From Octopus sinensis (Eukaryota), in the NCBI RefSeq assembly GCF_006345805.1, contig NC_043007.1, forward strand, positions 42,470,001 to 42,534,000: a stretch of 64,000 nt of DNA, read 5' to 3'. The position numbers were made by a program. Positions 1-38,600 of this stretch are shown here, one piece after another (position 1 is the first letter of the stretch; every line of letters begins with the position of its first letter).

Positions 1-918
1 ATATTATAATCAAGCATTAAGAGAAGGGATGGAGACCTAGAAAAAGCTTTGTATCTACTGTTAAATTTCCTTTCAAATGTGCAGATTGTTTATAAAATTA
101 CTTTCCAGTGAAATTAAATCTGTTTTCACTGATAGAATTAAATATCTCTCACTTTCTGTTCAAAGATTTACATAATTTTTTTACGAAGTTTGAATAATTA
201 GCAATTCTGGAGTTTCAAGTTAAGATTAAGAATTAACCAAATAGAAAGTAGATCAACTGATTTCTGCTCTTTTAATATTCAAGGAAATCAAAGCAAACAG
301 AAATCTATCACTCACTTTATGATTTAAAGCAAGGCACACTCCAGATCTCCACTGATAACGGATATCAGTTAATTCCTCCAAAAACTTTGCCGCCACTTCC
401 ACAGAAACCTCAAGTAAGACACCATTTTACTTTATTAATGTCCAATCAGGGTTCCTTCATCCAGCTCATTAATTATTATCACTTCATTTACTTATATATT
501 ATCTTCATTGTTATGCAGAATTTGCGATGCCATTGTATTGGGTGTCACTGTAACCTTGTATAAATTTCTTGTTTAGTTGGAAAATATGATCATGTTTTGG
601 GAAATTTTCAAAAATTTAATCTGTGTAAGAAATTATTACTTCCACTATTAAACTAAAAATTTATAATTTAGCAACTACATTCTTTTTATTAGGTTTAGAT
701 TTAGGCAATAATGTGATCTAACTTTCCTATTGCACCTAGTAAGGCTTGTAAACTTTGGCATGATGCCTATTTGGAAAGGAGACCATTGAAACTAGGTTAT
801 CTGTTTATTGCTGTGGTTCTCAAATTGTGTGCTGCAAAGCACTGGTGCACTCTAAATATTTAAATAAAAATATATAATTTTAGGCTTCAGAAAATTCATT
901 CCAATATTATTTTATTCA

Positions 919-997
<79 letters not shown>

Positions 998-35587: not shown

Positions 35588-35625
<38 letters not shown>

Positions 35626-38600
35626 CATGCATGTATCTGCATGCTTATTTACATCTGCTCTTCCTTGAAATTCTCGTTAGAATCAGTGATGCTGTCATTA
35701 TCCTTGTCAATAAGAAGTCATGAGAAATGAGTGTCAGTGACAAGAGCATATGCCTGTAAAACAATACAGTGGACAGTAGTTTGATTGATGATTTAGTAGA
35801 GTGTCCCTTGAGGTCTGACAATAACACACACACATACACTGATGTGCATATATGCAAGCAAACATATTCATAGGAACGATGTGGTGGAAGTGTCTGCTTA
35901 TAAAATCCATGTTTTGTTTGTTATATGTAATTGATTAAATATTGCTAAGAATGGATGTAAAAAGCACCTGTGCTGGTACCACATAAAGAGCACTTGTGCT
36001 GGCATTATGTAAAAATACACTCTGTAAAGTGGTTGGCATTAGGCAGGACATCAAGCCACAGGAATCATGCCAAAACAGAAAATTGGAACTTGGTGCAGCT
36101 CTCCAGCTTGCCAGCCCCTTGTTAAACTGTCCAACTCATGCCAGTATGGGAAACAAACGTTAAATGATGGTGATGATGATGATCATCATATCCAGAGGTC
36201 ATGTTACCCAAATGTGAGTATCCTGAATGATTAAGAGCTTCACTAATGGTCAAAACTCAGAAACATCATGCATAACACATACCTTCATACACCCACTTGC
36301 ATGCATACACGCACCCTCTGTAAATTTTAAAATTTCAGCAAGTCAAATCTGTTAATAGTAATTTCTCTCTAACTGTAGGATTTCAAAAAAATATTGCCAC
36401 CAGTTTCTGTTGTTGATAAATGTAAACAAGAAGCTGGGTGATGAATGGAGCCAAACAGATGATACCCTCACTGCTGACAATTCCTTCCTGATTATTCAAG
36501 AACATGCTAATTTTTAAAAAATATATATATATATATATTTATATTACAACCATATTAATATATATTATTTGATATTCGTAATCAATAAAAGGAAATAATG
36601 AATTTGCAAAATTATCATCAAGACTTTCTTTTCATTTGATCTCAGTTTTTCTATGTAAACCTTTAAAGTCTTGTTCATAATTAACAGCAACTGTTGCAGT
36701 TTATTAAGTAAATGTATGGGTATTTTTCCTTTAATTTTTGAACATCATGGCAAATAATGCCTCAAACATTGAGTTAAAGCTTGGTAATATTATTCATTAA
36801 TGATTTAAATAGTATTTGAGGGAAAGAGCTTAGACTTGGAAAAAATAATCAGTAACATTTCAGTATCTTCTGTACACGTCAGCATGAAATTTATAGAGAT
36901 TTATTTATGAAGGAGTGCATTGATGCTTTTACTAGTAAATGGTGAGGATTAAAAAGAACATTACTTTATTGATATAATGGTAGGTTTATTATTGTGATGA
37001 GAGTAAATAACACTAATTTATAATGTAGGCCTATCCTGGAATGTTTTTTTAATGAGAGTTGTGCAGCGTCCAAGTTAGAGATTACTAGAGCACAAATTAA
37101 GCTCTATGACAGGAAATCAACACCTAGAAATCAATAACTTGTAAATATGTGAAAATCAACTTACCTGGGCAGGTGAAAATGATGTGACAATAGGTAAAAA
37201 TTACAACAATAGGAAAAGCCCAAACTTATAATGTTCACCAACTGTCATTGAAAAATCATGCAATAGCTATCTTCACGGTTTTTACACTGGATTGACTGCA
37301 TTTCATCAAAATTTCTGGTTTCTAACAGGATTGGAAAATTTATTGAGAAAGCACTTTTGTCGAATGTATTTCTTATTTATATTGTTTTGAATTGATTACA
37401 CTTGTAGCTTCAAGATATCAAAGATGTGTTTGTATATTTTTAGAATGACGTTATAAGGTAGGTTTTAAATAAAACAGGCAGAATATTTGGGCTGATTATG
37501 GCTAGATTAAATGCTAAAGGGTTCAATTAATATTAGTTTAATGTGCTATAAAGACCCTACTGAGCCACGGATTATTCATGTTCATTTCTAACTAGAATAG
37601 CTTCTAATTCCGCATTAGTCTATGGAATGAGAACCAGGGGAAATAACTCTACAGTGTTGTCCATTGAATTGCAAATAGTTTAGACAATTGGACTGCTAGC
37701 TGAAGGCTCACTACTCCATATCCTGCCACAGACACTGCATGGTATCTATAACTTGGTCCAGATTGCAGTAAAAAGATACCAATTTTTGAAGCTGTGAGAA
37801 GCAGAGTTACTGTAAATTAACAAATGTTTAATTAGCTTACTTATTACAGTACTGAAAAAAGCAACAAGAAGCTGCTCCAGTATTCACATCAGCTAGTTCT
37901 GCCTTTCAGCCTAAGCTCTCATTACTGGCTTCTGGTGGTTTTGAGCATAGACACAGGACTACACGTTTGGGGCATGGAACAGTTGATTATAGTAGTCCCA
38001 GTGTTTGACTAAAAGATAGAGTTGAACATAGAGTATAAAGTGGCACTACTAAACACTGCAAGATATTTTGTCCAGCATTCTCTAAATTTTGTCAGTCCAC
38101 ATGTGTCAAAAGCGAGATTTGTATTAACTCTCATGAAATCACTCTGCCACTTCCTGCTTTAAATTGATCTAAATAAAAACCTTCCTTAAAAATTTCATGT
38201 TAATTTGTGTTCCAAATACCAGCTCAGTAATGACAAAATTATTTTATTAAATTATTCATTATTTTCAAAATTGATTAAAACAATGGCAGGGTATTTCAAC
38301 AGAAATATGAAAACAAATGGGGTTCATAAAAACATCTCTTTATAGTGGAAATAACTTGGGCAATTTGATTTGGTTTTAATAAGTAAATAGATATTTTTAT
38401 GTTTTAAACATTCATTGAATTAGATAAAATTCCCCAAATTTGGCATAAAGTCAACTGAATTGATGCCAATACTGGTTCTTTTTCTTCTTCCTGTGGTATG
38501 ATAAAACAAATCAATTCCAGATGATTTTCACTCACAATGTAAAGATACATAACTGAATACTGCAACCCATGTAGTCCATAACTGTAATGTTTCTTTTATA

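What the first reader, a model, noticed from the sequence alone, without database searches (positions are those of the whole stretch)
15..36441. Tandem pair of highly diverged SPATA17 paralogues
Seen in sequence: two same-strand genes with homologous exons and matching phases (36/36, 149/146 and 130/130 nt, QKPQ|GPFL junction, DFK last exon). Amino-acid divergence is high, yet B splices into an unbroken 981-nt frame (~326 aa). Known: SPATA17 is usually a single-copy IQ-motif protein of sperm and cilia. Inference: an old, possibly cephalopod-specific duplication. A stays closer to the family consensus, while B evolved fast but kept its frame, suggesting a specialised sperm or ciliary role.
Basis: partly seen in the sequence, partly recalled or inferred. 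Interest (0 to 1): 0.8.

Follow-up and report, generated by a model that had tools for sequence, protein, structure and literature searches.

The report
Octopus tandem SPATA17 gene pair
Two neighbouring octopus genes are old, strongly diverged copies of SPATA17, the calmodulin-binding strut of the central pair in sperm tails and cilia; both are already in the public annotation, so this is an ordinary gene duplicate, made mildly interesting because each copy has lost different conserved motifs.

Summary
The tandem pair is real. Every exon matches one of two RefSeq models named 'spermatogenesis-associated protein 17-like [Octopus sinensis]' at 100%. Gene A (P0001, 333 aa) has only its last four exons in the window (284-4153). 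Gene B (P0042, 335 aa) has ten GT-AG exons (15547-36441).

- the 149/146 and 130/130 nt exon pairs
- the QKPQ|GPFL junction
- the DFK last exon
- the matching intron phases

Not reproduced:
- the 36/36 pair
- the 981-nt frame; the model is 1008 nt

Both proteins hit solved SPATA17 (E 8.9e-46 for A, 8.6e-33 for B) and Chlamydomonas FAP305.

The duplication is old. Synonymous sites are saturated and no exon similarity remains at DNA level. A, B and two unnamed records form a clade apart from gastropods, bivalves and a chiton (100/99). The branching order inside that clade is unresolved.

"A conservative, B fast" is half right. B's branch is twice A's. However, A has lost an ancient motif (HHLxST..PGIYNSP) that B keeps, and A's tail appears frameshifted. 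B has lost the first IQ motif.

Nothing here is new in kind. I saw no transcript data.

The parts
284..413 (+). Gene A (RefSeq SPATA17-like, P0001), fourth-from-last exon. 130 nt, ends ...LPPLPQKPQ in phase 0. The upstream exons of A lie outside the window.
   Evidence: tblastn at 100% to P0001 residues 185-228. AG/GT borders, and the peptide is found in P0001 at residue 186.
2486..2634 (+). Gene A exon of 149 nt. It starts with GPFL and holds the RYKP..LRVE block.
   Evidence: It hits solved SPATA17 9ijj_3B residues 259-306 at E 8.8e-05. It scores 72.2 bits against the family profile.
3176..3305 (+). Gene A penultimate exon, 130 nt.
   Evidence: 38.3 bits against the family profile.
4115..4153 (+). 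Gene A last exon: 36 coding nt plus the stop. It reads DFKTC followed by a 7-residue off-consensus tail.
4131..4175 (+). Relic of the ancestral tail of A, in the +1 frame. It is 14 residues plus a stop, the same length and stop position as the tails of P0002 and P0003. This implies a 1-nt frame change at about 4130, or an assembly indel.
   Evidence: 23 of 20000 shuffles reach the observed mean score against 25 family tails. The family HMM does not detect it (-3.2 bits).
15547..15617 (+). Gene B (RefSeq SPATA17-like, P0042) exon 1 with the ATG, 71 nt. It shows no family-profile signal.
21354..21422 (+). Gene B exon 2, 69 nt. It sits where the first IQ motif should be, but that motif is degenerate here.
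   Evidence: No profile hit. Pfam finds 2 IQ stretches in B against 3 in A. B keeps 1 of 7 conserved IQ1 columns.
23349..23430 (+). Gene B exon 3, 82 nt, holding IQ motif 2.
   Evidence: 19.9 bits.
25052..25102 (+). Gene B exon 4, 51 nt.
   Evidence: 5.8 bits.
27800..27903 (+). Gene B exon 5, 104 nt, holding IQ motif 3.
   Evidence: 35.4 bits.
28970..29122 (+). Gene B exon 6, 153 nt: coiled-coil segment plus the ancient motif KKHHLISTAVIPGVYNSPF.
   Evidence: 45.7 bits. It aligns to FAP305 residues 160-184. A B-type copy in another genome (P0103) is identical at 45 of 51 residues.
30888..31026 (+). Gene B exon 7, 139 nt: a variable linker ending ...GLQKPQ in phase 0.
   Evidence: No profile signal.
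33377..33522 (+). Gene B exon 8, 146 nt. It starts with GPFL and holds the RYKP block.
   Evidence: 32.4 bits.
34359..34488 (+). Gene B exon 9, 130 nt.
   Evidence: 11.9 bits.
36379..36441 (+). Gene B last exon: 60 coding nt plus the stop. It reads DFKKILPPVSVVDK...
   Evidence: 4.8 bits.

Best explanation
The window is Octopus sinensis chromosomal DNA. It carries two head-to-tail genes that descend from one SPATA17 gene by an old tandem duplication.

What SPATA17 does, from the literature: SPATA17 (Chlamydomonas FAP305) is the 'rachis' of the C1a projection of the ciliary and flagellar central apparatus. It is an extended protein that leaves protofilament 3 of the C1 microtubule, binds SPAG6, and carries three calmodulins on its IQ helix.

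Shown here:
- Both copies are intact.
- Their intron positions and phases are conserved where they can be compared.
- Synonymous sites between them are saturated.
- Both are SPATA17 by homology.
- They have diverged asymmetrically, and B is about twice as fast as A.
- Their losses are complementary. B has lost IQ motif 1 and several C-terminal consensus residues. A has lost the ancient HHLxST..PGIYNSP motif and its consensus tail.

Inferred:
- Both are maintained by selection as central-apparatus proteins.
- B acts as a rachis variant with two calmodulin sites instead of three.
- The two copies have partitioned or specialised the ancestral roles, for example sperm flagellum against epithelial cilia.
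For: Identity with the RefSeq models.

Gene structure: 9 of 9 B introns and 3 of 3 in-window A introns are GT-AG, each exon is open in its phase, and B totals 1008 nt.

Homology:
- Against 9ijj_3B SPATA17, A gives E 8.9e-46 and B gives 8.6e-33.
- Against FAP305 (7n6g_4Q), A gives 2.1e-18 and B gives 1.9e-17.
- Pfam finds 3 IQ stretches in A and 2 in B.

Age: pS is 0.77 and pN is 0.395 over 91 aligned codons. No exon similarity remains at DNA level.

Constraint on B:
- It keeps 68 of 111 columns that are at least 80% conserved in 23 other SPATA17s. A keeps 79.
- A random frame of this base composition stays open over 335 codons with probability 1.3e-11, and over the 239 homology-supported codons with probability 1.7e-08.
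- A B-type exon 6 from another genome (P0103) is identical at 45 of 51 residues. The read-through intron part beside it is identical at 11 of 17.

Placement: A, B, P0002 and P0003 form a clade at 100/99, separate from 7 named molluscs.

Function of the family: passages of PMC12297659, bioRxiv 10.1101/2024.08.06.606614 and PMC9113940.
Against: - I saw no transcript or protein evidence for either copy. Both are computed RefSeq models.
- B exons 1 and 2 have no family-profile signal. The 5' end of the model, and so the loss of IQ1, rests on the annotation. A profile search of the + strand from 4200 to 23348 found no alternative IQ1 exon (best E = 1).
- The exon-versus-intron contrast in P0103 is not significant (Fisher p = 0.06).
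- A's motif-bearing exon lies outside the window, so A's motif loss rests on P0001.
- The order of A, B and P0002/P0003 is unresolved. The free tree gives 93/60, and both constrained alternatives have p-AU about 0.5. The date of the duplication within cephalopods is therefore unknown.
- No B-type full-length protein from another species was found.
Confidence: 0.8

Rival explanations
1. B is a decaying or unexpressed duplicate, that is a pseudogene kept in the annotation by gene prediction, and not a functional gene.
For: - B has the longest end branch in the tree (1.98).
- It has 31 private changes at conserved columns.
- It has lost IQ1, LPP, EW..R..D..F and PLLH.
- Exons 1, 2 and 7 have no family signal.
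- No transcript-like record of B was found outside its own cluster.
Against: - All ten exons are open in phase with canonical splice sites, despite saturated synonymous divergence from A. The chance estimates are 1.3e-11 and 1.7e-08.
- 12 of 13 positions of the ancient motif are kept.
- The motif half of exon 6 is unchanged in P0103, where all 6 differences fall in the first 26 of 51 residues.
Confidence: 0.08
2. The duplication is much older than cephalopods (molluscan or earlier). The other lineages simply lost one copy, or the second copy was not sampled.
For: - Synonymous sites are saturated, so the DNA sets no upper age limit.
- The protein searches are cluster-based or word-indexed and can miss copies.
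Against: - A and B group with each other and with P0002/P0003 at 100/99, apart from Haliotis, Nucella, Biomphalaria, Lottia, Liolophura, Sinanodonta and Tegillarca.
- The four share 8 derived states.
- Each of the 35 other named species appears once among the 56 hits.
- In the exhaustive HMMER search, no protein is closer to B than A is, apart from the fragment P0103.
Confidence: 0.05
3. B belongs to a different IQ-motif family, and its resemblance to SPATA17 is limited to the IQ repeats.
For: IQ motifs are common. A also gives weak hits to myosin-V IQ necks (E about 1e-4).
Against: - B aligns to solved SPATA17 over residues 54-328, far beyond the IQ region.
- The non-IQ exons 6, 8 and 9 score 45.7, 32.4 and 11.9 bits against the family profile.
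- B shares intron positions and phases with A.
Confidence: 0.01

Closest known systems
RefSeq models 'spermatogenesis-associated protein 17-like [Octopus sinensis]' (P0001, 333 aa; P0042, 335 aa)
   Same: They are identical to the window's exons at 100%. Both sit on a contig of 77,502,973 bases. The two genes are therefore already annotated under this name.
   Different: Nothing differs in sequence. The paralogy, the complementary motif loss and the off-frame tail of A are not part of the annotation. I found no paper on them: 'SPATA17' with 'octopus' gave 0 papers. 'SPATA17' with 'cephalopod' gave 1, a giant-clam transcriptome judged by its title and abstract start. 'SPATA17' with 'paralog' gave 14, of which 10 were listed, none on this by title.
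SPATA17 of the solved sperm central apparatus (PDB 9ijj chain 3B, 379 aa; the tool gives no organism)
   Same: Homologous over nearly the full length: A residues 17-328 at E 8.9e-46, and B residues 54-328 at E 8.6e-33. According to passages of PMC12297659, mouse SPATA17 is the C1a rachis, binds SPAG6 and carries three calmodulins.
   Different: B's first IQ region aligns at only 5.7 bits. A lacks the HYLLST..GIYNSPF motif. Both octopus proteins are about 45 residues shorter.
Chlamydomonas FAP305 (PDB 7n6g chain 4Q, also 7sqc; 427 aa), rachis of the C1a arm
   Same: It shares the IQ region, and for B also the motif HHLVSTA.QPGIFNSPY (B 53-177 against FAP305 60-184, E 1.9e-17). Its role is taken from passages of PMC9113940.
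   Different: The alignment of A stops at residue 153, before the motif. No similarity was detected beyond residue 184 of FAP305.
Unnamed records P0002 (342 aa) and P0003 (345 aa), on short transcript-sized contigs
   Same: They are the nearest relatives of both copies (100/99 clade). A is 47-52% identical to them and B is 38-39%.
   Different: They keep all family motifs and 87 and 88 of the 111 conserved columns. Their branches are short (0.17-0.21). Their species is not known to me and I did not look for it.

Membership tests
SPATA17/FAP305 family (membership by descent) | Significant full-length sequence similarity to experimentally placed SPATA17 and FAP305. | tested here: met
   Against 9ijj_3B and FAP305 respectively, A gives 8.9e-46 and 2.1e-18, and B gives 8.6e-33 and 1.9e-17. 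Single exons also hit.
SPATA17/FAP305 family (membership by descent) | Placement inside the SPATA17 tree among named orthologues. | tested here: met
   Careful ML tree of 45 rows. A and B sit in a 100/99 clade nested among invertebrate SPATA17s.
SPATA17/FAP305 family (membership by descent) | The block KPQGPF(R)..V..QRYKP..P.LRV in the C-terminal half. | tested here: met
   A's exon scores 72.2 bits and B's exon scores 32.4 bits against a profile of 25 family members built without A and B. Both read GPFL where the rest read GPFR.
SPATA17/FAP305 family (membership by descent) | The ancient motif ARK.H.L.ST...PG.YNSP, conserved from Chlamydomonas to vertebrates. | tested here: inconclusive
   B keeps 12 of 13 positions. 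A keeps 4 of 13 (alignment of B to FAP305). The feature is met for B and not for A. A's exon lies outside the window, so A's result rests on P0001.
Canonical three-calmodulin C1a rachis (functional architecture) | Three IQ motifs in the N-terminal helix. | tested here: not met
   A, P0002, P0003 and Haliotis each have 3 Pfam IQ stretches. B has 2. B keeps 1 of 7 conserved IQ1 columns, and no alternative IQ1 exon was found. The feature is met for A and not for B, so B is a homologue but not shown to be a canonical three-IQ rachis.
Canonical three-calmodulin C1a rachis (functional architecture) | C-terminal tail FK..PPIP.FDKLN.TYS. | tested here: inconclusive
   B's tail is partly kept (mean score 17.3 against the family tails). 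A's annotated tail is replaced, and a relic appears in the +1 frame (23 of 20000 shuffles). The HMM does not see that relic.
Canonical three-calmodulin C1a rachis (functional architecture) | Location on C1 protofilament 3, with binding of SPAG6 and calmodulin. | not testable with these tools
   This needs proteomics, cryo-ET or binding assays.

The most novel reading that the evidence does not exclude
After the duplication the two copies split the modules of the ancestral rachis. A keeps all three calmodulin-binding IQ motifs and the strongly conserved C-terminal block. A has lost the HHLxST..PGIYNSP motif, which is conserved from green algae to vertebrates, and its tail. B keeps that motif and the tail, but has lost one IQ motif. 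Either octopus C1a projections are built from both proteins, or different cilia and sperm flagella use different rachis variants. In either case the pair would be a natural separation-of-function experiment for the modules of SPATA17.
Probability: 0.2. Interest if true: 0.5.

Novelty: new member of a known kind. Interest (0 to 1): 0.25.

Why it matters
SPATA17 is the scaffold of the C1a projection, which passes signals from the central pair to the radial spokes, and its three calmodulins suggest calcium control of the beat. A lineage with two old, intact and differently degenerated copies could show which modules are needed where: the number of IQ motifs, the ancient HHLxST..PGIYNSP motif, and the tail. 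As it stands this is a routine, already annotated tandem duplicate. Its value is as a lead for comparative work on cephalopod sperm and cilia. It also flags that RefSeq model A may carry a 1-nt frame problem in its last exon.

Tried and rejected
1. A third copy. The 'DFK**' frames at 9380 and 18359 looked like extra last exons. They lie in multi-copy interspersed repeats, and no other SPATA17 exon lies near them or beyond 36441.
2. It is AG/GT-flanked and open in one frame, but its peptide is absent from P0001. None of the 104 open AG..GT 36-mers listed in B's span is a separate exon of P0042. One of them (30888-30923) is merely the start of exon 7.
3. An alternative exon encoding IQ1 for B. 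I ran a profile of the family N-terminus against 594 + strand pieces between 4200 and 23348. The best hit was E = 1, 'QIQKWFL' at about 22.6 kb, which is not significant.
4. dN/dS between A and B. Synonymous sites are saturated (pS 0.77), so it cannot be estimated.
P0175 carried 5 of 6 signature states, but it is only 25% identical to A and unrelated in the C-terminal half, so I rejected it.
6. Resolving the branching order. Holding A+B together gives lnL +0.76 and p-AU 0.519. Holding A+P0002+P0003 together gives lnL +0.45 and p-AU 0.514. The free tree gives B+(P0002,P0003) at 93/60. Signature counts are 2, 4 and 3. The order is unresolved.
Which species share the 90% clusters stayed unchecked.
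8. Rfam over the whole window gave 0 matches.
9. Pfam on transposase-like open pieces gave only DDE_3 at E 0.0044, below the cut-off, for 57356-57643 on the minus strand. It gave nothing credible for 20.2-20.8 kb.
10. Structure, complex and Atlas tools were not used. The family is known, the protein is extended, and no partner sequence was held.
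Full report
**What the window is.** The 64,000 bases hold no N and are 35% G+C. One exon (2486-2632), searched by itself, returned a 333-aa protein named 'spermatogenesis-associated protein 17-like [Octopus sinensis]' (P0001) at 100% identity. It also returned an unnamed 342-aa relative, P0002. A search with P0001 returned a second O. sinensis protein of the same name (P0042, 335 aa, 33% identical to P0001) on a contig of the same length, 77,502,973 bases.

tblastn places P0001 residues 185-333 on four window exons. It places all of P0042 on ten window exons. 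Every exon matches at 100%. The window is therefore O. sinensis chromosomal DNA, and both genes of the finding are already annotated.

I searched the spliced models exon by exon. The whole-protein searches used the database records as the tools returned them.

**Check of the observation.**

Gene A has only its 3' part in the window:

| Exon | Coordinates | Length |
|---|---|---|
| fourth from last | 284-413 | 130 nt |
| third from last | 2486-2634 | 149 nt |
| penultimate | 3176-3305 | 130 nt |
| last | 4115-4153 | 36 nt + stop |

Gene B exons:

| Exon | Coordinates |
|---|---|
| 1 | 15547-15617 |
| 2 | 21354-21422 |
| 3 | 23349-23430 |
| 4 | 25052-25102 |
| 5 | 27800-27903 |
| 6 | 28970-29122 |
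| 7 | 30888-31026 |
| 8 | 33377-33522 |
| 9 | 34359-34488 |
| 10 | 36379-36441 |

- B totals 1008 nt. All 9 of its introns are GT-AG, and every exon is open in its phase.
- The '36/36' pair is not supported. Segment 15-50 has AG/GT flanks and one open frame, but its peptide is not in P0001.
- B's frame is 1008 nt, not 981.
- Two further 'DFK**' frames at 9380 and 18359 lie in interspersed repeats that have copies elsewhere in the window. They are not SPATA17 exons.
- No SPATA17-like exon lies downstream of 36441.

**Family.**
- The single exons 2486-2632 and 33377-33520 each hit the solved chain 9ijj_3B, 'Spermatogenesis-associated protein 17' (E 8.8e-05 and 3.6e-04).
- The whole records hit it at 8.9e-46 (A, residues 17-328) and 8.6e-33 (B, residues 54-328).
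- They hit Chlamydomonas FAP305 (7n6g_4Q) at 2.1e-18 (A) and 1.9e-17 (B).
- Passages of PMC12297659 and of bioRxiv 10.1101/2024.08.06.606614 describe mouse SPATA17. It is the rachis of the C1a projection of the sperm central apparatus, extends from C1 protofilament 3, binds SPAG6 and carries three calmodulins.
- Passages of PMC9113940 describe FAP305 in the same role in Chlamydomonas.
- Passages of the review PMC7999657 list SPATA17 among the C1a-c-e components.

**Age and place of the duplication.**
- Over the two exon pairs that can be aligned (91 codons), pS is 0.77 and pN is 0.395. Synonymous sites are saturated and dN/dS cannot be estimated.
- blastn between the two loci finds only microsatellites and interspersed repeats.
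- I built a careful ML tree of 45 of the 75 proteins then held: 24 named and 21 unnamed. The 30 left out were further vertebrates, partial sequences and a 485-aa two-domain protein.
- The tree puts A, B, P0002 and P0003 in one clade (100/99). That clade is apart from Haliotis, Nucella, Biomphalaria, Lottia, Liolophura, Sinanodonta and Tegillarca.
- The four share 8 derived states at columns conserved in the other 23 sequences.
- Inside the clade the order is open. The free tree gives A,(B,(P0002,P0003)) at 93/60.
- Holding A+B together gives a likelihood 0.76 higher (p-AU 0.519). Holding A+P0002+P0003 together gives 0.45 higher (p-AU 0.514).
- Signature counts are 2, 3 and 4 for the three groupings.
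- Among the 56 hits, each of the 35 other named species appears once and O. sinensis appears twice. This search is cluster-based and word-indexed, so it is only weak evidence for a single copy elsewhere.
- In the exhaustive HMMER search with B (583 hits at E up to 0.001), the best non-self hit is A (146.7 bits).
- The only B-type sequence found is P0103, a 68-aa ORF from another genome. It covers B exon 6 (45 of 51 residues identical) plus read-through of the intron before it (11 of 17 identical).
Whether other cephalopods carry both copies therefore stayed unchecked.

**Is B a working gene?**

For:
- The frame is intact across ten exons with canonical splice sites, despite saturated divergence. 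A random frame of the window's base composition stays open over 335 codons with probability 1.3e-11. Over the 239 codons of the homology-supported exons the probability is 1.7e-08.
- B retains 68 of the 111 columns that are at least 80% conserved among 23 other SPATA17s.
- In P0103 all six differences fall in the first 26 residues of exon 6, and the motif half is unchanged.

Against, or open:
- I saw no transcript data.
- Exons 1, 2 and 7 give no family-profile signal.
- The exon-versus-intron contrast in P0103 is not significant (p = 0.06).

**How the copies differ.** B is the faster copy overall:

| Measure | A | B |
|---|---|---|
| End branch length | 0.98 | 1.98 |
| Private changes at conserved columns | 14 | 31 |
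| Profile score, GPFL exon (bits) | 72.2 | 32.4 |
| Profile score, penultimate exon (bits) | 38.3 | 11.9 |
| Conserved columns kept (of 111) | 79 | 68 |

P0002 and P0003 keep 87 and 88 of those 111 columns, and their end branches are 0.21 and 0.17. A is therefore not simply the conserved copy. The losses are complementary.

- B has 2 Pfam IQ stretches. A, P0002, P0003 and Haliotis have 3 each.
- B keeps 1 of 7 conserved IQ1 columns, and A keeps 6 of 7.
- A profile search of the + strand between A and B exon 3 found no alternative IQ1 exon (best E = 1).
- Conversely, B keeps 12 of 13 positions of the motif A-RK-H-L-ST..PG-YNSP. B's copy aligns with FAP305 residues 160-184, so the motif predates animals. 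A keeps 4 of 13. This rests on P0001, because that exon of A lies outside the window.
- A's annotated tail is 7 off-consensus residues after DFKTC.
- In the +1 frame from 4131 the DNA reads 14 residues and a stop. This is the same length and stop position as the tails of P0002 and P0003.
- The mean score of that peptide against 25 family tails is reached by 23 of 20000 shuffles. The family HMM does not detect it.
- This points to a 1-nt frame change in A's last exon, either real or an assembly indel.

**Mechanism proposed.**
- Shown: two intact, old, tandem SPATA17 homologues with complementary motif loss.
- Inferred from the family's solved role: both are central-apparatus C1a rachis proteins.
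- Inferred: B would carry two calmodulins rather than three.
- Inferred: A may have altered whatever contact the ancient motif and the tail make.
- Not shown: whether they act in different cilia or sperm, or together.

**Novelty.** Both genes are in RefSeq under the family name.
- 'SPATA17' with 'octopus': 0 papers.
- 'SPATA17' with 'cephalopod': 1 paper, a giant-clam transcriptome judged by its listing.
- 'SPATA17' with 'paralog': 14 papers, 10 listed, none on this by title.
- 'Octopus sinensis' with 'central apparatus': 0 papers.

This is an ordinary tandem duplicate of a known family. The complementary degeneration is a modest lead.

Noticed in passing
window 4115-4175 (+): The last exon of gene A appears frameshifted relative to the family. 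The annotated frame ends 7 residues after DFKTC. The +1 frame from 4131 gives 14 residues and a stop, at the same position as in P0002 and P0003 (23 of 20000 shuffles reach the score). This is either a real 1-nt change or an assembly indel in the RefSeq model.
   Followed up: partly
window 9330-9435 and 18310-18412 (+): Two similar short frames end ...PAW(R/K).DFK followed by stops. They mimic the 'DFK' exon but lie in interspersed repeats, with further copies near 29.5, 36.0, 43.3, 58.6-59.4 and 62.8 kb. Rfam finds no family there or anywhere else in the window.
   Followed up: partly
window 22592-22636 (+), in B intron 2: A short open piece reads QIQKWFL, resembling the family's first IQ motif (kIQsWFR), and is followed by a stop. 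Its E-value is 1 among 594 pieces, so it is not significant. It could be chance or a relic of B's lost IQ1 exon.
   Followed up: partly
window about 20200-20800 (+), in B intron 1; and 57356-57935 (-): These are broken transposase-like frames. The piece at 20640-20756 holds a motif (HPPYS.DL..SDYHL) that I recall as mariner-like, but Pfam gave nothing credible for the three pieces tried between 20235 and 20756. Piece 57356-57643 (-) gives DDE_3 at E 0.0044, below the cut-off.
   Followed up: partly
protein P0092 (unnamed record, 777 aa; not in the window): This protein holds 11 matched stretches of the SPATA17 motif region (HHMLSTHVLPGIYNSPYLPW...) in tandem. It could be an expanded repeat or an assembly artefact in another organism.
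   Followed up: no
window 917-1002, 4745-5290, 35585-35623, 47.0-48.3 kb, 58.5-59.0 kb: Long (CA)n/(TG)n and (TA)n-type microsatellites. They produce the longest spurious open frames in the window.
   Followed up: no
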